DNA from: Thermodesulfobacteriota bacterium
GTDB taxonomy: Bacteria; Desulfobacterota_D; UBA1144; Nemesobacterales; Nemesobacteraceae
DNA length: 64,000 nt
Reading direction: 5' to 3'
Assembly: GCA_963667625.1 (NCBI GenBank)
Contig: OY763921.1
Coordinates: 1,132,359 to 1,196,358 of the forward strand
The first letter of the stretch is position 1. The number at the start of each line of letters is the position of its first letter. Below, in pieces: positions 36,901 to 55,487 of the stretch. A model generated the notes under the pieces. The model saw nothing but the letters and a program-made list of their open reading frames with translations. It was not told where the DNA came from and ran no database searches. Position numbers and translations under genes: made by a program.

Positions 36901-37229
36901 GAAAACATGTCCGCCTATTCAGCCCATCTCATTCACAAGCAACAAAAGAGAGTGCGGTTTTTTAGATTAAGTTCAAGTTCTCAAATAATCTATAGAGGAT
37001 ATAATCCCCAAACAGTTTAATCTCAAGAAAACTTTGGGATTAATATACTGTATAATCGTGATAGTCGAAGCGCACGGAACTGATGCCACGCTGACCTAGC
37101 CCTCATTATGAAAACCAGAACCCCAAAAAATCGTTACAGCGCAAGCGCCTCTCTGTATCTGAGGATTGATTGATTCATCTAGCAATGGTATATCTTCTCA
37201 TGCCGTGTTGAAAATACTAGGATGCAAAT

Positions 37230-37781
37230 ATGTTTGATTTCCCGACACAAGTTTGTGAATTTCTTTTGACCAATCCGATTTTTCTTTTTGTTGGGCGCTG
37301 TCTGCTGGTTATTACGGTAGCTGGTTTCTTAATTACCGCTGTATCTTGGGCTTTTGGCCTAGCAACTCCCATTTGGCGATTGGGTCTAGGTTTGCGGAGG
37401 AGGAAAATAGCTATAGCTTCTGATGCTGATAGTTTTAGCAGTTTGAAAGCTGATTTGACGGCAACTCGTATTTTTCGAGAAAAAAATATCAAACATATAA
37501 CGAAAGACCACTTAGCAACGGTTAAGAATCATTCCTTGATTATTGTTCATTATAATTCTTTTTGTGCCGAAGAGATTAAACAAATGCTCAATAGCAAAGA
37601 AAGTATTAGTGGTATGATTTTTTACTTTCCAGAATTTGATCCTGCATCAGGAAACAGAATCCCAAATGAGATGATTCAGGAAATAGGGAAAAGAGAAAAC
37701 ACGACGGTCGTAAATTTCAGAGGACGGTTGCTTAACGATATCATCAACACTATAATCACTACGAGTTATCAGAAAAAATAA
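37230..37781 (+). CDS. Small membrane protein (two predicted N-terminal TM helices plus a ~120-aa cytoplasmic alpha/beta domain). Candidate effector or sensor for the downstream CD-NTase.
   Basis: 183 aa. Hydrophobic segments LTNPIFLFVGRCLLVITVAGFLITAVSWAFGLA. No recognisable catalytic motif. First gene of a three-gene CD-NTase operon in an AT-rich island. Confidence 0.5.
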   Translation: MFDFPTQVCEFLLTNPIFLFVGRCLLVITVAGFLITAVSWAFGLATPIWRLGLGLRRRKIAIASDADSFSSLKADLTATRIFREKNIKHITKDHLATVKNHSLIIVHYNSFCAEEIKQMLNSKESISGMIFYFPEFDPASGNRIPNEMIQEIGKRENTTVVNFRGRLLNDIINTIITTSYQKK

Positions 37782-37805
37782 CCTAAACACAAAGCTTCAG
37801 AGAAT

Positions 37806-38785
37806 ATGCCCGCAGATTATCTCCTAAAAAGGGCGAGGAAGGGGATTTCGACGAGAGGGGTTTCATTGCGGATGTATATGAGTCTTTTACCAATCTGCTT
37901 GGAGAAAGCAAATGTATTCAGGTCGGATCATATCCTCGTTATACTGCAATTACGCCTGTTCACGATCTGGACATTCTGTATGTCTTGGGCAACTGGCATA
38001 GTACTCCCGACCACGACCCGTCCGTTGTATTATCTTGGTTAGAAAACGAGATAATTAGAAACTACGAGAATCCTACTTCCTACAGAATAGATGTCTCCCA
38101 GCAAACGCATTCTATAACGGTTGCTTATCTTCTGAACGGCAAAGAAGTTTTTTCAGTAGACATAGTCCCTGCCTACGCTTTTTCAAAAAATGAATTCAGG
38201 GATGATGTTTATATGGTTCCGGAAATCCTGAGAAAAAAACATGGCAAAGACAGGACGGAGCATTACCAGCGAATTGCCATGGAACGCCGGGCGGCGCAAT
38301 GGATTTTATCGGACCCTCTCGGTTACATACGGATTGCCTCTCGAGTTGATCGGATAACCGGAGGAGAGTTTCGAAAAACCACCAAAATCATAAAAAAATG
38401 GAAAAACAACTTGGCGGAAGCCGACAGCAGCCTGAAACTAAAATCTTTTCACCTTGAGCAGGTTGTTACGGGGTACTTTCAAGCCCAGAACTCTTTGGAG
38501 ATATTTGATGCCATTTTCAAATTTTTTGTCGAACTGCCGGAAATACTGGAAAATCCGAATCAGATAGAAGACCGGGCCAATAAAGACAAGTTCATAGATG
38601 ACTATCTTGCTGAGTTCTCGGATTACCAGAAAGCAAAAATCAGATCTGCCAGAGATGGTTTTCTGGTTAGGCTGGAAAATTTTAAAGAGAGAAACTCGGT
38701 TGATGAATTATTGAAGATCTGGTTTTATCCCAGAAAACCTCACGAACAGTTTCTTTTCGATTTCAAGAAAAAAAATGCTGACTGA
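37806..38785 (+). CDS. cGAS/DncV-like nucleotidyltransferase (CD-NTase). The reading frame is broken near the 5' end: the ATG at 37806 is in one frame and the catalytic body in another, joined only if the A5 run at 37826-37830 is read as A6.
   Basis: The frame encoding GSYPRYTAITPVHDLDILYV (GS motif plus first two acidic residues), FSVDIVPAY (third acidic residue) and IIKKWKNN...LKSFHLEQVV has no ATG, GTG or TTG between the upstream stop (37784) and the GS motif. The ATG at 37806 is in the other frame. Restoring one A gives MPADYLLKKGEEGDFDERGFIADVYESF... Confidence 0.7.
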
Positions 38786-39131
38786 CGACAACTTCACATT
38801 CAGGGTGGACGGGTTTGTTGAGCCCTTGTCTGGATATCGCCACGGCTGGATCATGGAAACTCCTCATTTGAGAAAAGGGTTGACTCGTTGGCCGGGGCAA
38901 GAAAGAAGCATCAAATTTTCAGTCCAGAGAAACAACACTCCGGCAACGGAATACCTATGGAAAGTTAGAAACAGCGATGACTGCGCTGAACCAAGGGGTG
39001 AAATAACACGCAACCAGACGGCAAACAATCCGGAGAAGACAGCATATCCGGGCGATCACTATGTTGAATGTTACGCGATCAGGGGAGATGAATGCATCGC
39101 TCGTTCCAGGGTGAACGTCAAAATCGTTTAG
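38775..39131 (+). CDS. Hypothetical 118-aa protein translationally coupled to the CD-NTase (start overlaps the CD-NTase stop)
   Basis: The ATG at 38775 overlaps the TGA at 38783-38785. No TM segment. No motif I recognise. Confidence 0.45.
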   Translation: MLTDDNFTFRVDGFVEPLSGYRHGWIMETPHLRKGLTRWPGQERSIKFSVQRNNTPATEYLWKVRNSDDCAEPRGEITRNQTANNPEKTAYPGDHYVECYAIRGDECIARSRVNVKIV

Positions 39132-39239
39132 CTCTTGAGTATTTACGGTTTCGGAATCGAGATGAAAAACCTTCCCGCGACTTGGCAGAACTCGCGGACA
39201 TCCTACCTGACGGCGACTCGATTTCCGTTACTCAGGCGG

Positions 39240-39962
39240 TTACAGCCACTTTGCGTATTCCTGCAAGTCTATCATCGGTACCGTAGCTTTGCTCTGGAGT
39301 CTGGAAATGAGATAAAAAAGAAACATCGCTACGGCTTTGTCGGTATTGTGGAATTTGTAATCTTCTGATTCTCTCTGGTAGTGGAAATAACCGTGAGAGG
39401 CAATACATCCGAAATCCAGTGCGCCATTGTCCGCATTCTTGGAATTCATGTGTTTTTCGATCAGGCTGGCGGGGTCAGACTTCCATCCGTTTTCAAGAGT
39501 CAGGATTCCTCCCAGAATGCGGGCCGGTTCCTTTTTGCTGAAAGTGCCTCCCGCGTGAGGTATCGGCAGACTGGTTCTGTACAGTCGTCGAACGCTGGCG
39601 ACTTTCTTCTGGGCATACTTCATATTTTTTGCATTGACTGTTTGTCTGGTCTCAAACACTGCGTATATGCTTTCCGCAGGAATGATTAATTCATCCTTAA
39701 ACTTAAAAATTAGCGGAGAATACTGCCGGTCGAATATTACCACGTCAATCTGTTCGCTGAAATCCCCCTTGCTGTCAACTATGTGGGCTTTTTCTGTCTT
39801 GTAGCGTTTGGGCAAATATTTCTTGAGCAGGTCAATCCATACTTTTTCGCTGGCGTCCCCTTTTGTCCCGGGATGCTGCAGTGTCTCCCGCGCCGACTGC
39901 AGACTGCCTTGTATGTCGTCGTGCATACTCGACAGGATTCTGCTCAATGACCATTTCGTCAT
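39240..39962 (-). CDS. Type III CBASS effector, NucC-like restriction-endonuclease-fold nuclease (putative)
   Basis: ~240 aa from the Met (MTKWSL...) at 39962, which overlaps the upstream AAA+ stop (TAATG-type coupling). IDVVIFD acidic motif with an Asp at position 73 from that start. It is the fourth gene of a CD-NTase/HORMA/TRIP13 operon. The ORF-track N-terminal extension is rejected because it overlaps the AAA+ gene by 176 nt. Confidence 0.55.
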   Translation of the reverse strand: MTKWSLSRILSSMHDDIQGSLQSARETLQHPGTKGDASEKVWIDLLKKYLPKRYKTEKAHIVDSKGDFSEQIDVVIFDRQYSPLIFKFKDELIIPAESIYAVFETRQTVNAKNMKYAQKKVASVRRLYRTSLPIPHAGGTFSKKEPARILGGILTLENGWKSDPASLIEKHMNSKNADNGALDFGCIASHGYFHYQRESEDYKFHNTDKAVAMFLFYLISRLQSKATVPMIDLQEYAKWL

Positions 39963-39963
39963 T

Positions 39964-40896
39964 TTAATCCTCTTTGAATGGCGGAGTCGGCAGCATTTCC
40001 CGTGCGATCTCAAGCGCCCTTTCTGCCTCGACCGGTTTTCCCGGGTACGCGTCCAGAACGATGGAAGGCAGCAGTCGTTGCGTAAGGTCAGAAAAAGTAA
40101 ACCCGCAATCACGGTCATCCAAAGGACCGGTTGCGGCAACCAGTTCGTTTATTCGTTCATCCGAAAACCCGAGTCCTCCAAGATATTTCCGGAGCACGTG
40201 TTGGCGCTGCTCGTCGCCTGGACGTCTGAAGGGAAGTATGTCCGCGGCGCGCCTTTTCACTGCGGGGTCAAGAGATCCTAAGCGGTTCGTGCACATGATA
40301 ACCGCGGCGGGGACTTTCGCATTGGCGATTCGGTCAATCCCCCTGATGAATGCGTTGACGCCTGCACGGTCCTCATGGTGCATCTGCGCGGCTTCGCGGG
40401 ATTGAGCTAATGCATCTGCCTCGTCTACAAACAGAATAAGCGCACCTCTGTTTTTATCCCCAAGGCTTTTCAGCTTTTCGGCTTCGGCTAGCACATAATC
40501 AAAAGCGCCTGAGAGAAGGCGCGTCATTTCTCCGACCCTGCCCTGCCCGCGACTGGAAAGACTTAGAGGCAACAGGGTGATCTCTATATTTTCCTGTCGG
40601 GCGACGGCATCTCCTATTCCTTCTCCGAGTTCCGTTTTTCCCGATCCTACATCACCGGCAAGTATAACCAAAGGGGGCCTCCGCAGGACTATATTCACTA
40701 TAGCGGTTTGTTTTGGATAATGTCTGTCCACCCACCTCTTCAGACCTGCAGGGTTGACAAGCGTAGCCAGGATTTTAATCAAGCGTGTTTTGTGGTCGTC
40801 CAGACCGACAAGACCGTGCAGACGTTCCAGCGCGTCAGAGTTAGGGTAATTGATCCTGCGTTCAAACAGATCATCCGGGTTAATAGCGTTGCTCAT
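39964..40896 (-). CDS. TRIP13/Pch2-like AAA+ ATPase (CBASS Cap6)
   Basis: 310 aa. Walker A GDVGSGKT, Walker B ILFVDEAD, sensor/Arg-finger region. Between the HORMA-sized gene and the effector. Confidence 0.7.
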   Translation of the reverse strand: MSNAINPDDLFERRINYPNSDALERLHGLVGLDDHKTRLIKILATLVNPAGLKRWVDRHYPKQTAIVNIVLRRPPLVILAGDVGSGKTELGEGIGDAVARQENIEITLLPLSLSSRGQGRVGEMTRLLSGAFDYVLAEAEKLKSLGDKNRGALILFVDEADALAQSREAAQMHHEDRAGVNAFIRGIDRIANAKVPAAVIMCTNRLGSLDPAVKRRAADILPFRRPGDEQRQHVLRKYLGGLGFSDERINELVAATGPLDDRDCGFTFSDLTQRLLPSIVLDAYPGKPVEAERALEIAREMLPTPPFKED

Positions 40897-41411
40897 TGGA
40901 AGTTCACGAGGCTAGCGCGGTTAAGGGCGCGGCCGCCAGCGGAATAGGTTTTGTCATAACTCAGATATCCGTTTCTGGCCGGTTCGAGAGCGTGTGACCT
41001 CTTTACGGGAATCAGAGCTTCAAGTGCGTCCTGCTGGATTTTCGTCAGTTGGTACCAACCCGGACCGTAAACTAAATAGCTACCGAAACTTGCTCTGGAG
41101 ATATTCGCACCGGGATAAATACGGCCTGGGTCATTATCGTCTGCAGAAGCTCCTTCCAGATCCCGGGCTGTGTAGATGATCATAGGTTCTATCCACATAC
41201 CATTGCGCCGGAAGCCATATGTAACAGTTCCGAGACATCCGTATCGTAGCAATATTCTCAATTCCTCTTCAAACTCCGCAATACGCGCATCACTGGGCGC
41301 ATCGTAGAAACGCTGCATGCGTTTCAAGTCCGCAGCCACCTTAGCCGATATGTGCCTTGCGTGCGTGTAGGTGAATGTTGTTGTTTCTGTGGTGGTAAAA
41401 CTTGTGCTCAC
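40893..41411 (-). CDS. HORMA-domain protein (CBASS Cap7), putative
   Basis: 172 aa with no enzymatic motifs. Size and position between CD-NTase and AAA+ ATPase, with a 4-nt overlap, match type III CBASS architecture. Confidence 0.55.
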   Translation of the reverse strand: MSTSFTTTETTTFTYTHARHISAKVAADLKRMQRFYDAPSDARIAEFEEELRILLRYGCLGTVTYGFRRNGMWIEPMIIYTARDLEGASADDNDPGRIYPGANISRASFGSYLVYGPGWYQLTKIQQDALEALIPVKRSHALEPARNGYLSYDKTYSAGGRALNRASLVNFQ

Positions 41412-41421
41412 GATTTCCTCC

Positions 41422-42387
41422 TCATACTGAAAATGACGGTCCGAATATTTTTTGCCAGTAATAAACGGTTTCTCCCTTAGTCGGTGCGGCGAGTGCCGCG
41501 TCTATAGCGTCTCCCGCATCCAGAGCGGCATCAAAAATCGCGTTGGCCTGGATATCTGTATACAGATTGCCAACATTGTTGTCGGGGTTCACAGGGTCGA
41601 TAATCTGAACCGGTTCCGTTAGAGTTCCGACTTCATCTGGATTGTAGTAGTCGTCGAAAACAATGCGTTCACGCATCCGAGTTCTTCCTATATATGTAAA
41701 GAAATGCTGCAGAGCCTCGGGATAATCCGAAAAATCCAAGGCTGCATCGCAGAGGTGAGACAGTACCATCTCCACCATAAAGGATTTGAAGCGAAATCCT
41801 TCATGCTGCCTTTTCATGTTTCTTACCCAGAATTTTGCCAGTCGGACTACTTGCGCAAAATGTTTTTCCTGCGCTTGCTTGCGTCTGCGTATAAACTCCA
41901 GATGAAGCGGGATGCTGGTTTTGAGAAACGAACCGTCATCCTGATTGACCAAGTTTCCGTACCATTGAGGGTCTCCGTCGTAAAGAATCGGGACAACATC
42001 AATGTCCAGACCCGAACCGCTGAACGAAACTGTCACGCTGTAGGTTTGGGGTTTGATCTGTTCTTCGGTGAAATTGGGAAAAGCTTTGCGCAGACGCTCT
42101 ACAAGATATTCCAGCAGGTCCGAAACATCCTGTGGAGTATCTGCTCCGCTTATATAGCACGCCATGTCTATATCGTTCAGGGAGCGAAGCGCAGTACCTT
42201 TGGCCAAACTGCCGGAAAGCAAAATCTTTTTCAGGGAGAAATCGGGGTGTTCGTCCAGATAACTCTCCAACCGTTCGCGTAGTCTGCGCGCTTGAGCACG
42301 GTACTTGTTGGCCTTGTCTCTCGGCAGGTTTACTTTATCCTCAGCAAAGCGAACAATTTCTCCATGATCTATATGGTCACGAGACAT
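41422..42387 (-). CDS. cGAS/DncV-like nucleotidyltransferase (CD-NTase) of a type III CBASS
   Basis: 321 aa. GSLAKGTALRSLNDIDMA (GS motif plus DxD), LDIDVVPI (third acidic residue), RLAKFWVRN...FKSFMVEMV. Confidence 0.85.
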   Translation of the reverse strand: MSRDHIDHGEIVRFAEDKVNLPRDKANKYRAQARRLRERLESYLDEHPDFSLKKILLSGSLAKGTALRSLNDIDMACYISGADTPQDVSDLLEYLVERLRKAFPNFTEEQIKPQTYSVTVSFSGSGLDIDVVPILYDGDPQWYGNLVNQDDGSFLKTSIPLHLEFIRRRKQAQEKHFAQVVRLAKFWVRNMKRQHEGFRFKSFMVEMVLSHLCDAALDFSDYPEALQHFFTYIGRTRMRERIVFDDYYNPDEVGTLTEPVQIIDPVNPDNNVGNLYTDIQANAIFDAALDAGDAIDAALAAPTKGETVYYWQKIFGPSFSV

Positions 42388-42464
42388 TTCAGTTCTCCTC
42401 TTACAGAAAATCTATATATTGTTGTAGGGATTTTTCTTCCCACCACCCAATGGGTATAAATATA

Positions 42465-43544
42465 CGTGCTTTCAAGTTTGAAACGCAACAGGTGGATCAG
42501 CACCGAAGAGTACCTGATTCGGGGTTTTGAAGCCAAGGCATTGCCTCGGTCTGTTGTTCAATTTGTCCATAACTCTGTCTACATCTTCCTGGGTCAGTTT
42601 CCCGAAGTCCATTCCCTTTGGGAAGTACTGCCTTATAAGTCCGTTTGCGTTTTCACAGGACCCCCGCTCCCACGAGTGGTAAGGATGGGCGAAGTACCAC
42701 CGCGCCGAGAGCTCGCTTGATAGTTCCTCATGCAACGCGAACTCCTTTCCGTTATCGCACGTCACAGTCTCGAAGCGCTTGCGCATGGGTGTCGCCGCCT
42801 CGAGTATGGCCCGGGAGACGGAGGAAGCTTTTTTGTCCTCAGAGACCAGAATCATGCAATAGCGGGACTTGCGCTCGGCGAGGGTTACGAGCACCTTGCC
42901 TTTTTTTCTTGAGCCAAGCACAGTGTCGGCTTCCCAGTCTCCTGAGCGCACACGCTTATCCACCACTTCGGGGCGCTGGTCTATACAGACACGGTTTTTT
43001 ATATGTCCCCTGCGCGAGGGCGCTCCGTAGCGCTTTCTGCGCTTCTTGCGGCAGCGAAGGTGCGTGTGGAGATCTCCTCCATTAATCTTGTCTTCCCTTA
43101 CGTGATTGTAGATGCTCTGGTGGCTTACGCTGAGTCTTTCGTTTCGGGCAAGCCAGCAGCTTATCTGCTGGGGACTCCAGTCTTCTCCGAGCAGCAGCTC
43201 CACGCGAATCCAGGTTTGTTGGGGGATACGGTTTCCACAACAATTGCGCCTGCCCTCCGCAAGCCTCTGAGCCTGCTTGGGACGGTAACCCCGTTTGCCG
43301 CGGTTGCGGTGAAGTTCCCTGCTTATGGTGGATTTGTGCACGCCCAGGTGCCTTGCGGTCTGGGTCTGGTTGTGCCCTGCTTTGCGCAGGATGTAAATCT
43401 GGTATCTTTGTTCCAGGGTAAGTTGCTTTGGTTTTCTCATTCAAACGCTCCTTTTGATTTGGTCGTTAAAAGAGGGTTGCGAAGATTATCGCAACTTGCC
43501 CTTTTAATTTACATCAAAAGTTGCGTTTCAAACTTGAAAGCACG
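42465..43544. mobile_element. IS30-family insertion sequence (~1.08 kb) with 25-bp perfect terminal inverted repeats
   Basis: Left inverted repeat CGTGCTTTCAAGTTTGAAACGCAAC at 42465-42489. Its exact reverse complement GTTGCGTTTCAAACTTGAAAGCACG is at 43520-43544. A single transposase ORF lies between them. Confidence 0.85.
42472..43440 (-). CDS. IS30-family transposase
   Basis: 322 aa with an N-terminal HTH (LTLEQRYQIYILRKAGHNQTQTARHLGVHKSTISRELHRN) and a DDE core (WEADTV...D...E). Confidence 0.9.
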   Translation of the reverse strand: MRKPKQLTLEQRYQIYILRKAGHNQTQTARHLGVHKSTISRELHRNRGKRGYRPKQAQRLAEGRRNCCGNRIPQQTWIRVELLLGEDWSPQQISCWLARNERLSVSHQSIYNHVREDKINGGDLHTHLRCRKKRRKRYGAPSRRGHIKNRVCIDQRPEVVDKRVRSGDWEADTVLGSRKKGKVLVTLAERKSRYCMILVSEDKKASSVSRAILEAATPMRKRFETVTCDNGKEFALHEELSSELSARWYFAHPYHSWERGSCENANGLIRQYFPKGMDFGKLTQEDVDRVMDKLNNRPRQCLGFKTPNQVLFGADPPVAFQT

Positions 43545-43940
43545 ATACGATCGATAGGAAAATTTTCAAGTTTATTTTCGCATACATTCATATGTACATT
43601 ACAGGAGACTTCGAGTTAAGTATGGGCAAGTGAAAGAATCGCGGCTCAAGCCCTGTTTGCAGGGGTAGTGCACTTTAAAGTCAACGGGCGAATGAATTGA
43701 TTTGTTGTAAAATCGGAAGTAATCTTAATGTGTTAAAGAAATACACTTAACCTGTTGTGTAAATTTCGAGATCCACTTCTTACGCAGCAATTACGACAAC
43801 CGTTCTTGGGGCAAGGAGAAATTTGAAGAGCATCATATCGTATCCCGCAATGAAAACTGCATCCACATGGACAGAACATTCGGAAATAAGCCGGCAATTC
43901 CGAAAATAATAATCACAAAAAGAAAAAACAGGACTTTCTT

Positions 43941-44480
43941 GTGAAAATATCAAACACAATCTCGAAAATCCTTATCGTCTTGCTTATAGCCCTGCTTGCC
44001 TATACGCTCTGGAGCGGGCTTTCGGGAAAGGGAAATGTCGAAACCCCTTCCCAGCTTGTGGGAAAAACCGCACCCGAGTTCGCGCTGCAGTCATTTAACG
44101 GCGAAGAGGTAAAGCTTTCTGATTTTCGGGGAAAGACAGTACTTGTGAATTTCTGGGCATCTTGGTGTCATCCCTGCAGAGAAGAAGCCCCGGAACTTGA
44201 GAGAGCTTACATGTCGCTTTCAGGAAAACAGGTGGAATTCATAGGAATAAACGTAATGGACAACAGGAAAAGCGCCGAGAAATACATAAAATCGTTCGGG
44301 GGAACCTTCATCAACGTTCATGACCCGGAAAACAGAGTGCATCTCGATTACGGAGTAGGAGGGGTTCCAGAAACCTTCTTCGTAGACCCCGACGGTATCA
44401 TAACCGGCAAGCACAGGGGACCGATTACGGAGAAAATGATCATGCGCTATGTCGAAAATGCGGCTTCCTCTCGAAATTAA
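43941..44480 (+). CDS. ccmG: Thiol:disulfide interchange protein CcmG/DsbE (cytochrome c maturation)
   Basis: N-terminal TM anchor, VNFWASWCHPCREEAP and GVGGVPETFFVD, the CcmG signature motifs. GTG start. Confidence 0.8.
   Translation: MKISNTISKILIVLLIALLAYTLWSGLSGKGNVETPSQLVGKTAPEFALQSFNGEEVKLSDFRGKTVLVNFWASWCHPCREEAPELERAYMSLSGKQVEFIGINVMDNRKSAEKYIKSFGGTFINVHDPENRVHLDYGVGGVPETFFVDPDGIITGKHRGPITEKMIMRYVENAASSRN
44470..44479. repeat. Left copy of an imperfect 9-10-bp direct repeat (CTCGAAATTA / CTCGAAAATT) flanking the 14.3-kb restriction-modification + helicase/DUF1998 island
   Basis: CTCGAAATTA at 44470-44479 (the 3' end of ccmG) and CTCGAAAATT at 58834-58843 (just upstream of ccmH). Confidence 0.35.
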
Positions 44481-44494
44481 CTTTTGACCAGATT

Positions 44495-45718
44495 TCATCT
44501 AAGACTGAGAGAACGAACATCTCTTATGAAACTCTCAAATGATTGCAAGTGAGGTCGAACGTTTTTAGGAAAAGAAGAAATTATTGGCGTAGGTACAACG
44601 AGTTGAACTTTGGCTTTTACCATTTCCGCGAATTGATTTTCAGACACGCCTTCTTGAAGGGTTAGCAAATGCTTGATTTTAATTCTGTCGGCTTCGTTAA
44701 GAATTTGACGCCATCTGTCTTTGCAGGTCGTTTTGACTGCCAGCATTTTCAGCCGATTAGATAAATGGCTCTTCGATTTATAAGCCTTTTCTGAAGGAAA
44801 AAGGAAATCAGGTCTTTTCCCTTTCTCCGATTCAGGTTGGTGAGTAAAGTCCTCATTTTCAATTAATCCTTCTTCCAGAAAAATACGCTTGGCATGTAAT
44901 TCAAGCGATCGACCTGAGCGCGCTTTCCTTCTCTGTAAAATTGACTGAGCCTTTAAAATGAAATCATCCAAATTTGCAAATCCCTTTTTAATGAAAGGAA
45001 GCTCAACAGCTTCTTCCACACTTCTAAAAACCTCGAATTCATATTGTCTTCTTTTAACGAGCCTAGAATCAGGCTTAATCCCAAGTGCACCTTTGATATC
45101 GATAGTTTTTTGAATGATTTCCATACCAGTTGGAAATTTCTCCAACCATTGTTCGGGGATTTCATCCGGGTATAGCCAACAAGAGCTTCTATCTGTTGGT
45201 CTTTGTTTTTCTACTTCATCCGAGGACCACACCTTTCCTGCTCCGGGTTCGACGGGGCCAATTCGGTTCTCAATAAAATCTTCTTCAGTTTCATGTCGAC
45301 AAACCCAGACATGGCAAGAGACAGCTTCTCTATTACTATCCAACTCAAAAGCAAAAACGCTCAAGGCTCCGGTACTCTCAGGATCAAGAAGAGGTGAATC
45401 CTGTCCTCCAAAATTTGTCAGTCGAGCTTCATCCCTACCTCTTTTAGGATTTCCATGAAATTTGTTGTTATACCATATTGCTCTAATTCTCCGACAATCA
45501 GTGTGAGAATCCACATACAAATCAAACCAGAGATCAGGGTTTTTTATTTCCTTTCTGTTCAGTAACGGGAAAATATCAAACAAAAAGTCTTTTGGAATAT
45601 AGGGTCCTGCCTGATGGGAACCATTAGCCAGAGTGTCATTTCCAGAAAGACGCTTTACATACCAGATGAAATCCGAGTTAGAAACCTCAGCTACCCAATC
45701 ACTCAACTCCATCTGCAT
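44495..45718 (-). CDS. Type IIE restriction endonuclease, EcoRII family (likely CCWGG-specific)
   Basis: 407 aa, alignable by eye along its length to EcoRII: YVKRLSGNDT..GSHQAG, IWVC..TEEDFIE, RMLAVKTTCKDRWRQILNEADRI, PDFLFPS. Confidence 0.9.
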   Translation of the reverse strand: MQMELSDWVAEVSNSDFIWYVKRLSGNDTLANGSHQAGPYIPKDFLFDIFPLLNRKEIKNPDLWFDLYVDSHTDCRRIRAIWYNNKFHGNPKRGRDEARLTNFGGQDSPLLDPESTGALSVFAFELDSNREAVSCHVWVCRHETEEDFIENRIGPVEPGAGKVWSSDEVEKQRPTDRSSCWLYPDEIPEQWLEKFPTGMEIIQKTIDIKGALGIKPDSRLVKRRQYEFEVFRSVEEAVELPFIKKGFANLDDFILKAQSILQRRKARSGRSLELHAKRIFLEEGLIENEDFTHQPESEKGKRPDFLFPSEKAYKSKSHLSNRLKMLAVKTTCKDRWRQILNEADRIKIKHLLTLQEGVSENQFAEMVKAKVQLVVPTPIISSFPKNVRPHLQSFESFIRDVRSLSLR

Positions 45719-46169
45719 CTTTACCCCTTATTTCGAAGAAAGGTGAGCGCCCTTTTAACCACGCAACACATTCATCAATAATTCTTTTTAAGTCTTTTTT
45801 GTGTTTGCCTTTTATAGCACACTCCCAAATAATTAAAACTCTCCAGCCTTTTTCAGATAACATTTGAATCGATTCTTCATCGTGGTATTTGTTTCGAGTT
45901 ATTTTCTGTTTCCAGAAATCAGGTCTGGTCTTAGGCCATTTAAATAAATGACAATTGTGGAGGTGCCAAAAACAACCATGTATAAAGACTACGGCCTTAA
46001 ACTTAGGAAAAACGATATCCGGCTTACCAGGAAGATCTCGGACGTGAAGCCTGTATCTGTATCCAAGTGCATGGATTGCCTTTCGAATAAAAAGTTCCGG
46101 TTTGGTGTTTTTACCTTTAATGCCGGACATCATCCGGCTTCTTTTCTCAGTCGATACTATATCAACCAA
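45699..46169 (-). CDS. vsr: Very-short-patch-repair endonuclease Vsr
   Basis: 156 aa with KPELFIRKAIHALGYRYRLH and FIHGCFWHLHNC. Overlaps the upstream C5-methyltransferase gene as dcm/vsr do in E. coli. Confidence 0.9.
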   Translation of the reverse strand: MVDIVSTEKRSRMMSGIKGKNTKPELFIRKAIHALGYRYRLHVRDLPGKPDIVFPKFKAVVFIHGCFWHLHNCHLFKWPKTRPDFWKQKITRNKYHDEESIQMLSEKGWRVLIIWECAIKGKHKKDLKRIIDECVAWLKGRSPFFEIRGKDADGVE

Positions 46170-47430
46170 CTGCTCTAAGTTCCCTTTGGTTGATTTGGAC
46201 TAATTGTTCTTCACTTTCAAGTATCCAAGGAACCATATGTCTTGCAATGGCCTCAACAACTGGAACAACAACTGCATTGCCAAACTGTTTGTAAGCTTGT
46301 ATATCAGAAACGGGGATAACAAACCGGCTTTCTGTGGGTTCATCAAATCCCATCAGTCGAGCACATTCCCTTGGAGTCAATCTACGAGGATTTCTTCTAC
46401 CATGTTGTTTTACCAGAATTTCGGAACCGTCTTTGTAATATCTTGCAGAAAGCGTTCTAGTAGTATCGTTATGGCCAACTAGACTGTAACCGAAGCCGTT
46501 ACCCTTTTTTCGATGCTTTTCTGCATAAGCCTGAAGATAATTCCAGAGTTTATCAGAAAGCGTATATTTAGGGAGAACCTTTCCTTCTCCATCAAGAAAC
46601 TTCCGGTTTTGCTCATTGAAAGTTTCAGAACCGTCTTCAGTATGAAGGATGTTGCCCAGCCTTGGAGTATCTATAGAATTAGGTTGGACAAAATTTTCAA
46701 AACTGAAATCGTTTTCTTCCAGAAAGCCAACTATGAAGATTCGTTCACGATGCTGTGGTACCCATGATTTAGCATCAATAACACGACAATGGACCTGGTA
46801 TCCCAATTCTTCTGTCAAAGTTCTATGGATAACCTTAAAAGTATTTCCTTTGTCATGACTAACCAAGTTTTTAACATTCTCAAGCAAGAACGTTTTTGGT
46901 TTGTGGTACTCAATGATTCGTGCTACATCAAAAAAGAGCGTGCCTTGTGCTTCGCATCGGAATCCGTGAGGACGATTGAGAGAATTTTTCTTTGATACTC
47001 CTGCAATGGAAAATGGTTGACACGGAAATCCAGCTAATAAGACATCATGCTTAGGAATGTCTTTAGCTTCTATTTGAGTGATGTCACCTACTACCTCATG
47101 GTCGCACAAATAATTGGCTTTATAGGTTTGTTGTGCATATTTGTCCCATTCACTAGTAAACACACATTTACCGCCAAGAGGTTCGAAGGCTCTCCTCAAA
47201 CCACCGATTCCAGCAAACAAATCAATAAATTTAAAGGCGGACTTTACAGGTGCATCATATGTTCTGGCAAGTTCCCTTAATACACGAATAGCTGCTTTTC
47301 TAGGTTTTGTTTCTCCTCGCTCCCATCGATACAAAGTCCTAGCAGAGAACCCTAATTCCTTGGCTAGTTCTTCGATTGACAATCCTGTTTTTTCTCTTAG
47401 GATTGAAAATTCATTGTTAGCATTCTGCAT
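46162..47430 (-). CDS. dcm: DNA cytosine-5 methyltransferase (Dcm/M.EcoRII-like) with N-terminal XRE-type HTH domain
   Basis: Motif I DLFAGIGG, motif IV GFPCQPFS, ENV motif. N-terminal LREKTGLSIEELAKELGFSARTLYRWERGE helix-turn-helix. Confidence 0.9.
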   Translation of the reverse strand: MQNANNEFSILREKTGLSIEELAKELGFSARTLYRWERGETKPRKAAIRVLRELARTYDAPVKSAFKFIDLFAGIGGLRRAFEPLGGKCVFTSEWDKYAQQTYKANYLCDHEVVGDITQIEAKDIPKHDVLLAGFPCQPFSIAGVSKKNSLNRPHGFRCEAQGTLFFDVARIIEYHKPKTFLLENVKNLVSHDKGNTFKVIHRTLTEELGYQVHCRVIDAKSWVPQHRERIFIVGFLEENDFSFENFVQPNSIDTPRLGNILHTEDGSETFNEQNRKFLDGEGKVLPKYTLSDKLWNYLQAYAEKHRKKGNGFGYSLVGHNDTTRTLSARYYKDGSEILVKQHGRRNPRRLTPRECARLMGFDEPTESRFVIPVSDIQAYKQFGNAVVVPVVEAIARHMVPWILESEEQLVQINQRELRAVG

Positions 47431-47631: not shown

Positions 47632-50600
47632 ATGAATGAATCAGGAATACTCACCTATAAAGACAGAGAATCTTTACGACGAAGGATCAGGGAGTCTAAT
47701 TCAGACTCATCAATTTCAAATGAAAAACTGATCCTGCATCTGTCTTCTGTTCTACAAAACCAAGGGGTAGAAAGTGAAGAGGAAAAAATATTTCAAGAAT
47801 ACACTTTTGATCTGATAAATGTTTTGAGGACAGCAGACAACAAAGAAGCATCTGAAATAGCCCAAGCAGTTTTAAATTTTATTGCAACAAATTTCCAAGC
47901 GGATGCTGAAGAACGATGGAAATTGCCAGCGAAACAAAGAGTTTATATCACGAGTGTAGCGATTAAAGAGATCTCGGAAATCATTAATTTGCCTAAAGCC
48001 AATGAAATACATGGATTAACTGTAAAAGAAAGGGCTGAAGCGGAAAAACTATTGTTAAGGTTTGCATCAGTTTCGGACAGTGTTGATTTAAAAAATCGCA
48101 ATCATGCCAAAAATTTTATTGAATTGTATGACAGGGAAAAACAATCCCGTTTAATGACTAGGTACTTAAAAAACATAAAACTTCTTGTTAGAGCTTTAGA
48201 GAGTGGTGATTTAAATACAGAGGACAGAGCATGGGCTAGGGGTGCTTTGAGTTATATCAGACTTAACAGAGATGTTATACCTGATGAGTATGGATTGATT
48301 GGGGTGCTTGATGATATGTACATTGCAAATTTGGCTGTTGGTCTTATTCGGCCAAGTGCACCACCGCTAACAGAACTAGTACTGGAATTCAGAAAAATTT
48401 GGCCGATTTTAAATGGACTGATTTTTTCTGAGGACAAGTCAGAGTATAGGTATACAGATATTGCATCCATTAATTCGGCGTTGGTCTGCATGCCATTGAG
48501 GGGTGAGAATCAATTACGAACAGCTCTTGTGCTTCCGTTTTCTGGGTGTACACCCAACATTATCGCAATTGCCGCTGTCTTTGGTGCAATATCTGTTCTA
48601 GCTAAAAAGGTGAAAGATGGTCCCGATTTCAAGATTGGAGACTTGGTTCGGGTTGATAATACAGCTGTCGCAACATATGGCGGAATATATGTATTTGAAG
48701 GGAAAGAATATATACGGTTGAATCAAGTTACTAAAAAGGCCAGCGAGAAGCAACCGGAACAAACAGTGACGAATCTAATTCCGTTGCAAGACAGTGCAAG
48801 ACTATGCCCGGCGAAGGCAGGATCCAAAACGCAAGGTGAAATTCAAACGTACTTGAAGAGTACAGAAAGAGAGCTTTCGGCAATTGAAAATCTTTTACAT
48901 TTGCCTCATCCACTTCAGTTTCACAGTATTGATTCTCATATATGGTTAATCTCATCTGCTGACAGAATGCGTTCTTTAGCAAAAGACTTAAGGGTCCACG
49001 GCCAGCGCCTTATTGATGTTTTCCCGATGGGACATATTAAAAGGGATGGAACTTGTGAAGCTTGGAGTGCAAGATTTGGAGAATCCGAATGTGTTCTGAT
49101 AACCGTAACTGATCTAGATTTAGCAGCAGAAATTTTGGAAGAAACAGAAGGAACAGATAGAGATTTGGTGATAGCTGATCTGTCAGGACCGAACAGGAAT
49201 CGTATCTCTTCCCTTGAAAGGGTTTTTGATCTTGATCTAAATGTCCTTTGTATTGCAGAAGAACGAGATGAGGGCTTAATTTCTATTGTCGAGCAATATA
49301 ATCCTGACATATGGGAGTGGAGCGGGGAGGAAGTAAGTGAGATAGGAAAATTCCCGCAATCTCAATCTGACAGCACCCACCCATTTTACAAAAATGACGG
49401 TCGTTTGATAAGAGCGATTTCAGGAAATACCTCTACCAGAGCAGTTCAACTTGAGTCTCTTGAGTGGTGCCATGCAACAATTTCAGCTGCGACCAAGAAG
49501 GTTCCCCTGGAAACTGAAGATAAGACTTTAGAATTTCATGAAATATACAGAAAATTGTTTTCGATATTCCTTCGATTGACGAGGATGCCTTTCCAGGTTG
49601 ATCCTGAGTGGTTTGGAAATGATGAGAAAGTTCTTTCCACCTTGAAAGAGCAACTGGTTTCCAGTGTTTTTATGACAGAGGAAGAGAAAAAATCTCTAAC
49701 TGATATAAGTATGCTTATACACAAGGCGGGTCAAGCTCTGGTTAATGCAAACCCTAAATGGACTGAGATGTATGAAATACTGAAATCAAATCCCAAAGCA
49801 AAAGTATTAATTCATAATCCCGCTGTTATCCCTGATGAACTTCAAAGTGAAAAAAAATATATTCTGATGAAAGAAGCGTGTTCGACAGCATGTGAAATTT
49901 TGATTGTGCCTTACTGGCCGGGGAAAGACAAAAGTTGGAAGTTGTTGACCGAAGCTGACGTTAAAGAAATAGTTTTTTTATTGTATCCCTATGAGGCTGA
50001 TTGGTATAAGAGTTTTGTTCGCCATAGAGAGTTATCACGACGTAGTAGAACCGAAAGACGCAATAGTCAGGCGATATTTCCAAAAGTTGGAACTTGGCCG
50101 AAAAAAACAGTAATGGAAAAACTGAGTGACAACTTGAGCCAAACCCCACATGAACTAGATCTTGTGGAGCTGAACAATAGCTACAGAAGAACCCGGATTA
50201 TCAAATCAATTGAATCAATGGAAAAAGATGTATCTGTTGAAACCCGTTTAGTTGGTTTTAGCGGAGGTGGGCATGCATTCTTGTCGTCAGGATATGAGGC
50301 TAGACTAGCCACTTACTTACTTGAAAGTGAAGCACATGCAAATACTGAAAATATTACTATAAGTTCTGCTGTGCTGGATAATCTTAATATAGGTGACGTG
50401 CTCATATTTCTAAAGGGGTCTGACAAAGATGCCATAAGAAAAATAGCGGATGAAAACTTACCTGAAGGGATGAGGAATTTGGCCAAGCTCTGGCAAACAG
50501 CACTTAAAGGTTATGTGGAAAAAGAAAAAGTGTCATTGGAAGAATTGGTATCGCTATTGTCTCAACAAGGCTGTAGAAAACATAGGGCAACGGTTAAGAA

Positions 50601-52909: not shown

Positions 52910-52941
52910 TTGTGAGACGATACCGGCATATCTGACAGATA

Positions 52942-53796
52942 TCAATCTCCAGTTTTCGAGGTCAAACCCTTCGAGTTTTTCTCGGTAGCGTATTTCGCGG
53001 GTCTGCCCCGTTTTTTCTTCACCTCCTCCTTCTTTTTCTCCATCGCATGACGCAACCTGTAGCTCTCCACGTTCATTTCAAGGATTACGCAGTGATGCAC
53101 AAGGCGATCCACTGCCGCCACAGCCGTATTTTCGTCAGGAAATACGTTTTTCCATTCCTCAAAGGGCTGATTCGCCGTAATAAGCAGTGACCTGCTCTCA
53201 TAACGGTTCGATATAAGCTCAAACAGCACCCTGGTTTCATCCCGATCTTTGCGTACGTACGCAAGATCATCGAGAATCAGCAGGTCATAACGGTTGAGTC
53301 GCTCAAGCATACTCTCCAGACGAAGCTCTCTATGGGCCATCTGAAGTCTCTGCACAAGGTCCGTCGTGCGGGTGAACATAACTCTTTTGCCCTGTTCCAC
53401 CAAGGCAAGCCCTATGGCCGAGGCAAGATGACTCTTCCCCACCCCCGGAGGTCCGAAGATTATCACGTTGTGACCTCCTTTGAGCCATGAATCGGTTGAA
53501 GCAAGCGCTCTTACCCTTGCCATGGATATAGTGGGAACCACAGAGAAGTCGAAGTTATCAAGACTCTTGCCGGCTATGAGATGAGCTTCGCTCAGGTGGC
53601 GCTGTATTCTCCTGCGCCCTCGCTCCGCGAGTTCGAGCTCGGCAAGCGCCCACAGCAGTCTTCCCGCCGGCCACCCCTCCCTGTCCGCCCGCTCGGCGAA
53701 CTGTTCCCAGGTGTTCTTTATGGCAGGCATTCTGAGTTCGGAGAACATCAGGGTAAGTCCCAGAGAATCTATTTTTGTGTTTTCTTTCGTGTTCAT
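52942..53796 (-). CDS. istB: IS21-family helper ATPase IstB
   Basis: 284 aa, Walker A GPPGVGKSHLA, DnaC-like AAA+. Confidence 0.9.
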   Translation of the reverse strand: MNTKENTKIDSLGLTLMFSELRMPAIKNTWEQFAERADREGWPAGRLLWALAELELAERGRRRIQRHLSEAHLIAGKSLDNFDFSVVPTISMARVRALASTDSWLKGGHNVIIFGPPGVGKSHLASAIGLALVEQGKRVMFTRTTDLVQRLQMAHRELRLESMLERLNRYDLLILDDLAYVRKDRDETRVLFELISNRYESRSLLITANQPFEEWKNVFPDENTAVAAVDRLVHHCVILEMNVESYRLRHAMEKKKEEVKKKRGRPAKYATEKNSKGLTSKTGD

Positions 53797-53822
53797 TGTT
53801 TTTCTCCTTTTTCTTCAATAAG

Positions 53823-55316
53823 TCAAAATAACGGCGTGTAGCTTGAAAGATCTCCCGCCTGGACGTCCACTTCCCTCATCGGCCCCGCTTTCATTGTGAA
53901 ACGCTCCTTGAGTCCGTCCATATCGGGCAGTTCTCCAGAGTTTACCGTGTCCCTTATCGCAAGCGCCAACTGGTCTTCACAGCTCTGCTCATGGGCCAGG
54001 GCAAGCAGTTTTACCGTGATTCTGCACGCCTCGCGCCTTCCAAGAAGTGAAAGAGCGAGCTCAAAACACTTTTTGTATTCCTCCCTTGGAAACAGTTCGT
54101 TGCGGTACACAAGATTCATAAGCGCTCCCGGCTTTTTCTTCAGAGAGTGAACCACATGATGGTAATTCACCTCGTAAACCGTTTTATCGCCGTCTTTTCG
54201 CCTTCTGGGAAGCGTCAGCTGATGACGGCCCCCGAAGTGCAGCTCTATGTTCGCATCATATACACGGGCCTCAAGACGGTGCCCTATGAGGCGGGAGGGA
54301 ACGGTATAGAACACTCCTTTGAGCAGAAAGCCGCCTGATGAGGTTACTGTCACGCTGTGGCGCTCATGCCAGGGCGCGGAACCCGCGGGAAGGGACCTCA
54401 GGGTTTTTCTCTCCGCTTCTATGCGCTCCGTTCTGCGGGCATTTATGTTCGAGGTCACCTCGGCAACAAAGTCGCGGTACTCTTCGATTTCCGCAAAGTC
54501 CCGGGACCCCCGAAGCTCTAAAGCGTCAGCTATTTCCCTTTTGAGATGACCGTGAGCCCCCTCTATGGCCCCGTTCTCATGGGCAACGCCCTTGTTGTTT
54601 CTCGTAGCTTCCATTCCGTAATGAGCGCAAAGATCCTCATATCTTCTGGTCATGTCTTTTTTCTGATCCTTGCTGAGGTTCTTGAATGCCGCGGAGAGTG
54701 AATCGGTGCGGTTCTCCGCGGGAGTTCCGCCGAGAGTCCGCAATGCCGCTTCAAGCCCCTGGGAGAAGGCGACGAAGCTTTCTCCTCCCTCAACTACGCT
54801 TGCGTGGACAAAGCCCGACCACGGGAGTCTGAAGTGAAAGAGCATATGATCAAACTGTCTTCTGGCGATTGTGACCTCAGCATCTCTCATCCTGGTAAAA
54901 TCGGAGATGCCCATATCTCCGGCTTTCTTGTTCTGGCGGAATATGACCTCTTTATCGGGGCCGTGTTCGGTTCTCCAGGTCCTTATACGCCTCTCAAGGG
55001 TGCGGCGAACCCCTGAGTCAAGCTCCGGATTGTTGCGAAGAAGCTCGTAAAAGACCGTAGAGGGCCTTATATCGGGACAATTACGAAGAATGGGGAGTAC
55101 CTGGGAGTCCCAGATGCCTTCAAGAGGGTCTGGGCGACGCCTCCCTCGGGGCTTTCTCTCCTTTTTCTGCTCTGTTCCAAGTTCTTTTTTGATCTGAAAG
55201 CCTGATGTGCGACCGAAGCCCGACTTGGCCGCAGCCGTTTCTGCTGAGAGTTTTTCTTCGGTGATGAGTTTCATGAATTTCCTCCTTTGTTCATCGGTTA
55301 TGTGTTGACCCGGCAT
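53823..55316 (-). CDS. istA: IS21-family transposase IstA
   Basis: 497 aa with an N-terminal HTH and a DDE integrase core. Confidence 0.9.
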   Translation of the reverse strand: MPGQHITDEQRRKFMKLITEEKLSAETAAAKSGFGRTSGFQIKKELGTEQKKERKPRGRRRPDPLEGIWDSQVLPILRNCPDIRPSTVFYELLRNNPELDSGVRRTLERRIRTWRTEHGPDKEVIFRQNKKAGDMGISDFTRMRDAEVTIARRQFDHMLFHFRLPWSGFVHASVVEGGESFVAFSQGLEAALRTLGGTPAENRTDSLSAAFKNLSKDQKKDMTRRYEDLCAHYGMEATRNNKGVAHENGAIEGAHGHLKREIADALELRGSRDFAEIEEYRDFVAEVTSNINARRTERIEAERKTLRSLPAGSAPWHERHSVTVTSSGGFLLKGVFYTVPSRLIGHRLEARVYDANIELHFGGRHQLTLPRRRKDGDKTVYEVNYHHVVHSLKKKPGALMNLVYRNELFPREEYKKCFELALSLLGRREACRITVKLLALAHEQSCEDQLALAIRDTVNSGELPDMDGLKERFTMKAGPMREVDVQAGDLSSYTPLF

Positions 55317-55487
55317 TGAAACCTCCTGTTCAAAGAAAATGAACAGAAGGCTTTACCAAATCAGCGACGAATACTGAAGGAAATTCTTCCCCCGGGATGG
55401 TGTCTGAAACTCCAGTCGGGCTACGCCCTCCTTCCGTTTCAGACACCATCCTCAGAGTTCAATCTTGATTGTCGCGCTAGTTCGAAG

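What the first reader, a model, noticed from the sequence alone, without database searches (positions are those of the whole stretch)
39240..42387. Complete four-gene type III CBASS operon (CD-NTase, HORMA, TRIP13-like ATPase, NucC-like nuclease) with coupled gene overlaps
On the minus strand lie a 321-aa CD-NTase, a 172-aa HORMA-sized protein, a 310-aa AAA+ ATPase (GDVGSGKT, DEAD) and a 240-aa restriction-endonuclease-like protein. Consecutive genes overlap by 4 nt and 1 nt. This matches the E. coli MS115-1 CdnC-HORMA-TRIP13-NucC architecture. The nuclease Met used here places an Asp of IDVVIFD at position 73, analogous to the NucC catalytic Asp. The 59-codon N-terminal extension in the ORF track would overlap the ATPase gene and is probably not translated.
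Basis: partly seen in the sequence, partly recalled or inferred. Interest (0 to 1): 0.55.

Follow-up and report, generated by a model that had tools for sequence, protein, structure and literature searches.

The report
Type III CBASS operon, Arg-variant nuclease
This is an ordinary, well-understood four-gene anti-phage system (a close relative of the E. coli MS115-1 CdnC-HORMA-Trip13-NucC operon) in a Candidatus Dadabacteria genome, with two local quirks: its nuclease carries Arg instead of the family's catalytic Lys, and a mobile element has landed in its promoter.

Summary
The four minus-strand genes are real and sit at the stated coordinates. HMM and PDB sequence searches assign them to CdnC (66% identity to E. 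coli MS115-1 CdnC), a one-HORMA bacHORMA_1 protein (54%), Trip13/Pch2 (67% to a solved Rhizobiales orthologue) and NucC (55%). The 240-aa NucC start is correct. One detail is wrong: only HORMA/Trip13 overlap (ATGA). Trip13/NucC are separated by 1 nt and CdnC/HORMA by 10 nt.

This is a new member of a known kind.
1. NucC's defining IDx30EAK motif reads IDx30ETR. Lys106 is Arg in five sister loci but Lys in the nearest outgroup and in 120/121 other close NucC sequences examined. The gene is still under purifying selection (omega 0.13-0.27). Arg recurs in about 5% of diverse family representatives, so it is probably functional.
2. An IS30-family element (42465-43544, 3-bp duplication) sits inside the -10 hexamer of the operon's conserved promoter-like element. 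An empty site exists in a sister locus.
3. The operon is half of a ~5.3-kb two-CBASS block that recurs in unrelated genomic contexts. The partner type I cyclase is frameshifted in this window.

The parts
41422..42387 (-). cdnC: CD-NTase (321 aa), clade-C type, cyclic trinucleotide synthase by homology
   Evidence: PADLOC PDLC00808 1.4e-143; Pfam SMODS. PDB 6p80 E. coli MS115-1 CdnC 5e-145, 66% identity. GS motif at 59, D72/D74, D128 present.
40893..41411 (-). HORMA protein (172 aa, GTG start, GGAGGA 5 nt upstream)
   Evidence: Pfam bacHORMA_1 9e-53 covering profile 2-167/169; PADLOC HORMA 1.4e-71. PDB 6p8v_H E. coli HORMA 4e-53 over residues 2-171, 54% identity. Single-sequence AF2 model uninformative.
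39964..40896 (-). Trip13/Pch2-like AAA+ ATPase (310 aa); ATGA overlap with the HORMA stop
   Evidence: PADLOC TRIP13 3.7e-128. PDB 6pb3 8e-127 and 6p8v_A 5e-126; 67% identity to 6pb3. Walker A 81-88, Walker B with E159.
39240..39962 (-). nucC: cAAA-activated restriction-endonuclease-fold effector (240 aa); ATG 1 nt after the Trip13 stop
   Evidence: PADLOC NucC effector 9e-103 from residue 60 of the long ORF. PDB 6q1h/6p7o/6p7p 1e-86 to 8e-90, 55% identity to Ec NucC. AF2 pLDDT 85, TM 0.84-0.86 to NucC structures. R53, Y81, H136, T226/V227 equivalents, D73 and E104 conserved.
39645..39647 (-). Codon 106 of nucC = AGA (Arg) where the family motif IDx30EAK has Lys
   Evidence: Motif defined in bioRxiv 10.1101/694703.
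42459..42464 (-). TATATT, the -10-like hexamer retained next to cdnC (its TAT is one copy of the IS target duplication), 71 nt before the cdnC ATG
43545..43569 (-). TTGAAA (-35-like, 43569..43564), 16-nt spacer and the other TAT copy: the displaced upstream half of the operon's promoter-like element
   Evidence: Conservation in all sister loci starts at this TTGAAA.
42465..43544 (-). IS30-family insertion sequence (1080 bp; perfect 25-nt terminal inverted repeats; transposase 43440..42472, same strand as the operon; 3-bp TAT duplication)
   Evidence: NF033563 2e-88. Empty site in L002 aligns without a gap after in-silico excision.
37230..37781 (+). 1TM effector of the co-inherited, convergent type I CBASS
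   Evidence: PADLOC PDLC00664 '1TM effector' 9e-51. Conserved next to the type III operon in L001, L003, L005, L010, L011.
37787..39131 (+). Second CD-NTase (SMODS + AGS-C), broken in this window by a 1-nt insertion near 37796 and an extra A in the A8 run at 38768-38775
   Evidence: PADLOC PDLC00785: fragments 3e-98 and 5e-38, frame-corrected 2.7e-172 over profile 9-441/443. Sister loci have one 451-codon frame and A7.

Best explanation
The locus is a genuine single-HORMA type III CBASS operon, orthologous to the characterised E. coli MS115-1 system and carried in a chromosomal defence island of a Candidatus Dadabacteria genome. The mechanism is inferred by homology and was not tested here. 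The HORMA protein closes around a peptide that appears on phage infection, then binds and activates CdnC, which makes cyclic tri-AMP. Trip13 unfolds HORMA and strips it from CdnC, which keeps the system off in healthy cells. cAAA binds the three-fold pocket of a NucC trimer, two trimers pair into a hexamer, and paired active sites cut double-stranded DNA, killing the infected cell. There are two lineage- or genome-specific features. (a) NucC has Arg instead of the catalytic Lys106. This arose recently, is fixed in a clade of at least five loci, and is kept under purifying selection, so the enzyme is most likely still a working nuclease, possibly slower. (b) In this genome an IS30-family element has inserted inside the -10 hexamer of the operon's conserved promoter-like element. 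Transcription must now come from read-through out of the IS or from a weak hybrid promoter (IS-end TTGCGT, 18 nt, TATATT), so expression is probably altered. The operon travels with a convergent type I CBASS as one ~5.3-kb block.
For: Family and orthology. Catalytic and ligand residues intact except K106; residue roles are taken from bioRxiv 10.1101/694703 and 10.1101/694695. R106 is not an error: the same ACC AGA codons occur in the window, L001, L003, L010 and L011, from five samples, while L005 has TCC AAG. Selection: NucC omega is 0.13-0.27 within the R clade and 0.17-0.21 between K and R bearers, and Trip13 is 0.13. Arg recurs in 8/149 50%-cluster representatives, scattered, with about 9 changes by parsimony. 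IS: perfect inverted repeats, TAT duplication, and an empty site in L002. Conservation across unrelated flanks begins exactly at TTGAAA-16-TATATT. Block structure and contexts. Relatives at about 80% CdnC identity lack the partner system. Host.
Against: No biochemical data exist for an Arg106 NucC. Lys is invariant in 120/121 close homologues, and a review of the PD-(D/E)xK superfamily lists migrations of the Lys but no Arg replacement, so loss or strong reduction of cleavage cannot be excluded. Omega below 1 shows constraint on the protein, not on catalysis specifically. The promoter call rests on an E. coli-type consensus in an uncultured phylum, and the consensus scan gave no more hits than shuffled sequence (4 against 3.9). 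Neighbouring systems in the same island are damaged, which fits erosion of the island rather than active use.
Confidence: 0.85

Rival explanations
1. The system is a decaying relic in this genome. R106 cripples the nuclease and the IS has cut the operon off from its promoter, so the four intact reading frames no longer give defence.
For: K106 is part of the defining motif and invariant in 120/121 close homologues. The IS sits in the -10 hexamer. The adjacent type I cyclase has two frameshifts, and DISARM drmA is split by an IS21 element.
Against: R106 predates the IS and is fixed in five loci differing by up to 6.6% in nucleotide sequence over the operon (four of the five compared). Omega is 0.13-0.27 and there are no stops or frameshifts in any of the four genes. 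Four of those loci have an uninterrupted promoter element. Arg recurs independently in the wider family. The IS insertion looks recent (perfect inverted repeats), so the frames have had little time to decay either way.
Confidence: 0.2
2. R106 NucC is a functionally altered effector: an attenuated or nicking nuclease selected to lower self-toxicity, or a cAAA- and DNA-binding protein with a non-cleaving role.
For: Purifying selection continues after the substitution. About 9 independent K-to-R changes are inferred in the family. All cAAA-pocket and gate-loop residues are conserved.
Against: There is no direct evidence. Arg may simply substitute for Lys with little effect. No compensating change common to R-bearers was seen.
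Confidence: 0.2
3. The NucC gene belongs to a type III CRISPR system, as some NucC homologues do, rather than to CBASS.
For: NucC homologues occur in type III CRISPR loci (10.1101/694703; PDB 6uxf Vibrio metoecus NucC).
Against: The gene starts 1 nt after the Trip13 stop, in one operon with CdnC and HORMA. The same four-gene unit recurs in ten related loci. None of the neighbouring ORFs I scanned matched a Cas protein.
Confidence: 0.01

Closest known systems
E. coli MS115-1 type III CBASS (CdnC-HORMA-Trip13-NucC; Ye et al. and Lau et al. 2019/2020; PDB 6p80, 6p8v, 6u7b, 6p7o-q)
   Same: Same four genes in the same order on one strand, with a single HORMA. Identities are 66% (CdnC), 54% (HORMA) and 55% (NucC). 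Trip13 hits E. coli Trip13 (6p8v_A) at 5e-126, and is 67% identical to the solved Rhizobiales Pch2. The CdnC D72/D74, Trip13 E159, and NucC D73, E104, R53, Y81, H136 and T226/V227 equivalents are all present.
   Different: NucC Lys106 is Arg and Ala105 is Thr; Tyr141 is Phe, which 24/121 homologues also have. The host is Candidatus Dadabacteria. An IS30 element splits the promoter-like element. The operon is joined tail-to-tail to a type I CBASS.
P. aeruginosa ATCC27853 type III CBASS (CdnD-HORMA1-HORMA2-Trip13-NucC; PDB 6q1h NucC)
   Same: Its NucC is the best PDB hit (7.6e-90) and it uses the same cAAA-NucC logic.
   Different: That system has two HORMA proteins and a clade-D cyclase. Here there is one HORMA, and the cyclase matches CdnC (5e-145) far better than CdnD (2e-6).
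Type III CRISPR-associated NucC (Vibrio metoecus, Serratia; PDB 6uxf, 7zgv)
   Same: Same fold and ligand pocket.
   Different: Those are encoded beside Cas10 complexes. This one is translationally coupled to Trip13 in a CBASS operon.
Type I CBASS with 1TM effector and AGS-C cyclase (PADLOC PDLC00664 + PDLC00785): the neighbouring partner system
   Same: Two-gene layout with an effector and a cyclase.
   Different: It is not part of the reported finding. The cyclase has ATC at the family's Met1 position in all sister loci and is frameshifted in this window.

Membership tests
Type III CBASS (cyclase + HORMA + TRIP13 + effector) | CD-NTase with GS motif and catalytic Asp triad | tested here: met
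   GSLAKGT at 59, DID at 72-74, DID at 128-130. PADLOC cyclase 1e-143 and PDB CdnC 5e-145.
Type III CBASS (cyclase + HORMA + TRIP13 + effector) | Adjacent HORMA-domain protein with C-terminal safety belt | tested here: met
   Met by sequence only: bacHORMA_1 9e-53 across profile 2-167/169, and 54% identity to solved Ec HORMA over residues 2-171, which includes the C-terminal region. The structure prediction was inconclusive (pLDDT 34).
Type III CBASS (cyclase + HORMA + TRIP13 + effector) | Trip13/Pch2-type AAA+ ATPase with Walker A and Walker B | tested here: met
   PADLOC TRIP13 4e-128; PDB 6pb3/6p8v_A about 1e-126; GDVGSGKT; ILFVDE with E159.
Type III CBASS (cyclase + HORMA + TRIP13 + effector) | All genes in one co-directional, tightly packed operon | tested here: met
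   Spacers of 10 nt, -4 nt and 1 nt. The same order is seen in L003, L005-L007, L010 and L011.
Type III CBASS (cyclase + HORMA + TRIP13 + effector) | HORMA-dependent cAAA synthesis and phage protection | not testable with these tools
   Requires biochemistry and phage challenge.
NucC endonuclease | Restriction-endonuclease fold with NucC-specific trimer embellishments | tested here: met
   AF2 model pLDDT 85; TM 0.84-0.86 to 6p7p/6q1h/6uxf; next hits are BbvCI, NgoMIV and SgrAI.
NucC endonuclease | Active-site consensus IDx30EAK (Ec residues 72-106) | tested here: not met
   I72, D73 and E104 are present, but 105-106 read T-R (codon AGA). K is found in 120/121 close homologues and 141/149 diverse representatives. 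The departure is conservative and recurrent, so the protein is still filed as a NucC orthologue on whole-length homology, with the catalytic status flagged.
NucC endonuclease | cAAA pocket (R53, Y81, T226, V227) and gate-loop latch (H136, Y141) | tested here: met
   All are conserved. Position 141 is F, as in 24/121 homologues. Residue roles come from 10.1101/694703.
IS30 family insertion sequence | IS30 transposase, terminal inverted repeats, 2-3 bp target duplication | tested here: met
   NF033563 2e-88; 25-nt perfect inverted repeats; TAT duplication; empty site in L002.
Type I CBASS (neighbouring system) | Intact cyclase plus effector | tested here: not met
   The effector is intact. The window's cyclase is split by two frame-breaking indels relative to four sister loci. 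This could be an assembly error.

The most novel reading that the evidence does not exclude
Arg106 NucC is not a neutral stand-in for Lys. It would be a selected, recurrently evolved effector variant (about 9 independent K-to-R changes in the NucC-like family) with altered catalysis, for example slower or nicking cleavage that tunes how lethal the abortive-infection response is. It would show that a PD-(D/E)xK nuclease can run on a PD-ExR site.
Probability: 0.2. Interest if true: 0.45.

Novelty: new member of a known kind. Interest (0 to 1): 0.25.

Why it matters
As a CBASS locus it adds little. Standard defence-system HMMs recognise it outright, and every step of its mechanism is already known from the E. 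coli and P. aeruginosa systems. Its modest value lies in three points. It provides a natural, selection-maintained Lys-to-Arg replacement at the catalytic position of a structurally solved nuclease, with a Lys-bearing sister about 90% identical, which makes a clean pair for testing what that lysine does. It is a well-documented case, with an empty site available, of an IS landing in the promoter of a suicide-type defence operon. And it sits in a small-genome uncultured phylum (Dadabacteria) in an island where three of four or five defence systems carry lesions.

Tried and rejected
1. A scan of genome contigs with NucC peptides found no relative.
2. Exact look-ups of the window's own CdnC and Trip13, and of P0121, were not on record, so the source record could not be named directly. 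The host was inferred from PNPase instead.
4. R106 as a sequencing error was rejected: identical codons occur in five independent loci.
5. A compensating migrated Lys was not found: no change is common to the R-bearers.
6. A paper search for 'NucC K106A' gave no relevant result. The PD-(D/E)xK superfamily review does not discuss Arg at this site.
7. Terminal repeats or att-like sites at the ends of the two-CBASS block were not found in L003, L010 or L011. The 13-15-nt ACAACAAATCAAT repeat in L005 is a coincidence with the 1TM start codon region, and the window has one copy only.
8. A programmed frameshift from the 1TM gene into the second cyclase (AAA AAA TAA) was considered, but the stop context is not conserved in L001.
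9. A strong hybrid promoter at the IS end was not found. Only a weak TTGCGT-18-TATATT is present, and the consensus scan reports none.
Full report
**Observation**

The window's minus strand carries four consecutive ORFs:
- 42387..41422: 321 aa.
- 41411..40893: 172 aa, GTG start.
- 40896..39964: 310 aa.
- 40139..39240: 299 aa.

Read at the base level, the junctions are:
- cdnC TGA, then a 10-nt spacer containing GGAGGA, then the HORMA GTG.
- HORMA/Trip13 share ATGA, a 4-nt overlap.
- Trip13 TAA, one A, then ATG at 39962.

The internal ATG at 39962 gives the 240-aa protein. Both the PADLOC NucC profile and the solved NucC chains align from exactly that Met, and AGAGGA lies upstream of it. Asp73 of IDVVIFD is correct.

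**Identity**

- Pfam gives SMODS, bacHORMA_1 (9e-53), AAA and DUF6602.
- PADLOC gives oligonucleotide cyclase (1.4e-143), HORMA (1.4e-71), TRIP13 (3.7e-128) and 'Endonuclease (NucC)' effector (9.1e-103).
- Against the PDB, the best relatives are the E. coli MS115-1 proteins themselves: CdnC 6p80 (5e-145), HORMA 6p8v_H (4e-53), Trip13 6p8v_A (5e-126; Rhizobiales Pch2 6pb3, 8e-127) and NucC 6p7o/6p7p, with P. aeruginosa NucC 6q1h at 8e-90.
- Identities are 66% (CdnC), 54% (HORMA), 67% (Trip13 against the Rhizobiales Pch2) and 55% (NucC).
- An AlphaFold model of NucC built on 45 sequences (pLDDT 85, pTM 0.85) superposes on every solved NucC at TM 0.84-0.86. Type II restriction enzymes are the next hits.
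- The single-sequence HORMA model failed (pLDDT 34). The HORMA fold rests on full-length sequence homology to a solved HORMA.

**Functional residues**

- CdnC keeps the GS motif, D72/D74 (the pair mutated in Ye et al., 10.1101/694695) and D128.
- Trip13 keeps Walker A and the Walker B Glu159.
- Lau et al. (10.1101/694703) define the NucC active-site consensus IDx30EAK (residues 72-106). Asp73 and Glu104 bind Mg. Arg53, Tyr81, Thr226 and Val227 bind cAAA. His136 and Tyr141 latch the gate loop.
- All of these are present here except two. Tyr141 is Phe, which is also seen in 24/121 homologues. Lys106 is Arg (codon AGA, 39647..39645), with Thr at 105.

**The Arg106 variant**

- Among the 120 closest database homologues plus E. 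coli NucC, Lys is invariant. The one exception is a 94%-identical sister of the window's protein.
- I recovered related loci from metagenome assemblies. L001, L003, L010 and L011 all carry the same ACC AGA codons, from four further samples. L003, L010 and L011 are 93-94% nucleotide-identical to the window over the type III operon, and L001 is 89% identical over the 3.8 kb it shares with the window.
- L005, the nearest outgroup (about 91%), has TCC AAG, that is Ser-Lys.
- The change is therefore real and recent, needed two nucleotide steps, and is fixed in a clade.
- Nei-Gojobori omega for nucC is 0.13-0.27 within the Arg clade and 0.17-0.21 between Arg and Lys bearers. The entire N-terminal active-site half is unchanged. 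Constraint has not relaxed.
- In 149 representatives of 50%-identity clusters, which are much more diverse, 8 have Arg at this column (E-[VI]-R). Each one's nearest neighbours have Lys, and parsimony on a neighbour-joining tree infers about 9 changes.
- I conclude that Arg is a rare but recurrent and tolerated state, and that this NucC most likely still works. That conclusion is an inference; catalytic activity was not and cannot be tested here.

**Regulation**

- An IS30-family element occupies 42465-43544: transposase NF033563 at 2e-88, perfect 25-nt terminal inverted repeats, on the same strand as the operon.
- It is flanked by a TAT duplication. Removing it and one TAT copy gives a sequence that aligns without a gap to L002, a sister locus with the same flanks and no IS.
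- The restored sequence reads TTGAAA, 16 nt, TATATT, then 71 nt to the cdnC ATG.
- In L003/L004/L010/L011 and in L005, whose upstream genes are unrelated to the window's, sequence conservation begins exactly at that TTGAAA. This is good comparative evidence that it is the operon's own promoter.
- In the window, the -35 element and one TAT are now 1.08 kb away. TATATT remains beside cdnC, preceded by IS-end sequence that offers only a weak TTGCGT at 18 nt.
- Expression therefore probably depends on read-through from the IS or on a weak hybrid promoter. This is an inference from consensus and conservation, in a phylum whose promoters are uncharacterised. The consensus scan by itself is no better than chance.

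**Context**

- The operon is half of a conserved block. Immediately downstream and convergent lie a 183-aa 1TM effector (37230-37781) and an SMODS + AGS-C cyclase, which together form a type I CBASS by PADLOC.
- The six genes, about 5.3 kb (window ~37155-42464, plus about 25 nt of displaced promoter half at 43545-43569 beyond the IS), recur at 89-94% nucleotide identity in at least three unrelated neighbourhoods.
- CdnC relatives at about 80% identity have the four-gene operon alone.
- No terminal repeats were found at the block's ends.
- The window's copy of the second cyclase is broken by a 1-nt insertion near 37796 and an A8 run against A7 at 38768-38775. The frame-corrected protein matches the family profile at 2.7e-172.

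**Host and island**

- PNPase is 99% identical to a Candidatus Dadabacteria MAG protein.
- The window also holds BamA, SpoT, KatG, an EcoRII-Vsr-Dcm module and a DISARM system whose drmA is split by an IS21 element.

**Verdict**

This is a textbook type III CBASS and a new member of a known kind, recognisable by standard tools. The features worth recording are the Arg106 nuclease variant, the IS in the promoter, and the co-travelling second CBASS. None of them changes the category, and interest is low to modest.

Noticed in passing
window 37230-39131 (+); L001, L003, L005, L010, L011: A convergent type I CBASS (1TM effector + SMODS/AGS-C cyclase) is co-inherited with the type III operon as a ~5.3-kb block in at least three unrelated genomic contexts. 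Relatives at about 80% CdnC identity lack it.
   Followed up: partly
window 37768-37770 (ATC); L001/L003/L005 equivalent positions: In all three sister loci examined, the second cyclase is one 451-codon open frame with no ATG, GTG or TTG for about 70 codons. The codon aligned to the family profile's Met1 is ATC, 12 nt before the 1TM stop and in the +1 frame. This suggests AUC initiation or termination-reinitiation coupling (low cyclase:effector ratio), or an unrecognised start.
   Followed up: partly
window ~37796, 37826-37843, 38768-38775: The window's second cyclase differs from its sisters by a 1-nt insertion (AGCTTCAG against AGCTCAG), an in-frame 18-nt insertion, and an A8 run where they have A7. 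The two frame-breaking indels make it a pseudogene, or they reflect homopolymer/indel assembly errors.
   Followed up: partly
window 50993-56972 (IS21 about 52844-55507): DISARM drmA is split into profile positions 2-630 (50993-52909) and 723-1161 (55488-56972) by an IS21 element (IstA 55316..53823, IstB 53796..52942, with inverted repeats at 52849-52872 and 55456-55479). DrmE (47632-50934) and DrmB (56985-58832) flank it.
   Followed up: partly
window 44495-47430 (-): An EcoRII-type restriction enzyme (407 aa), Vsr (156 aa) and a Dcm-type cytosine methyltransferase (422 aa) form an apparently intact R-M module. A ResA/TlpA-like thiol-disulfide oxidoreductase (43941-44480) separates it from the CBASS operon.
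   Followed up: no
L005 1041-2120: A 90%-identical copy of the same IS30-family element lies about 4.8 kb upstream of the CBASS block in L005, so this IS keeps company with the block in a second, unrelated context.
   Followed up: no
L007/L008 4582-5820: Relatives at about 80% CdnC identity carry a divergent HTH + M78-peptidase gene (CapH/CapP-like regulator architecture) upstream of cdnC. No such regulator is present next to the window's operon.
   Followed up: no
L009 2364-3484: One of the independent Arg-bearing NucC-like proteins (P0281) sits directly after an E2-CBASS-domain gene. Arg-site variants therefore also occur in other CBASS architectures.
   Followed up: no
window 39240-39251: The window's NucC ends at ...AKWL, four residues shorter than the four sister copies whose C-termini I aligned or measured (...AKWLQPPE / QPHE / QSPE in L001, L003, L005). 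E. coli NucC also ends close to KWL.
   Followed up: no
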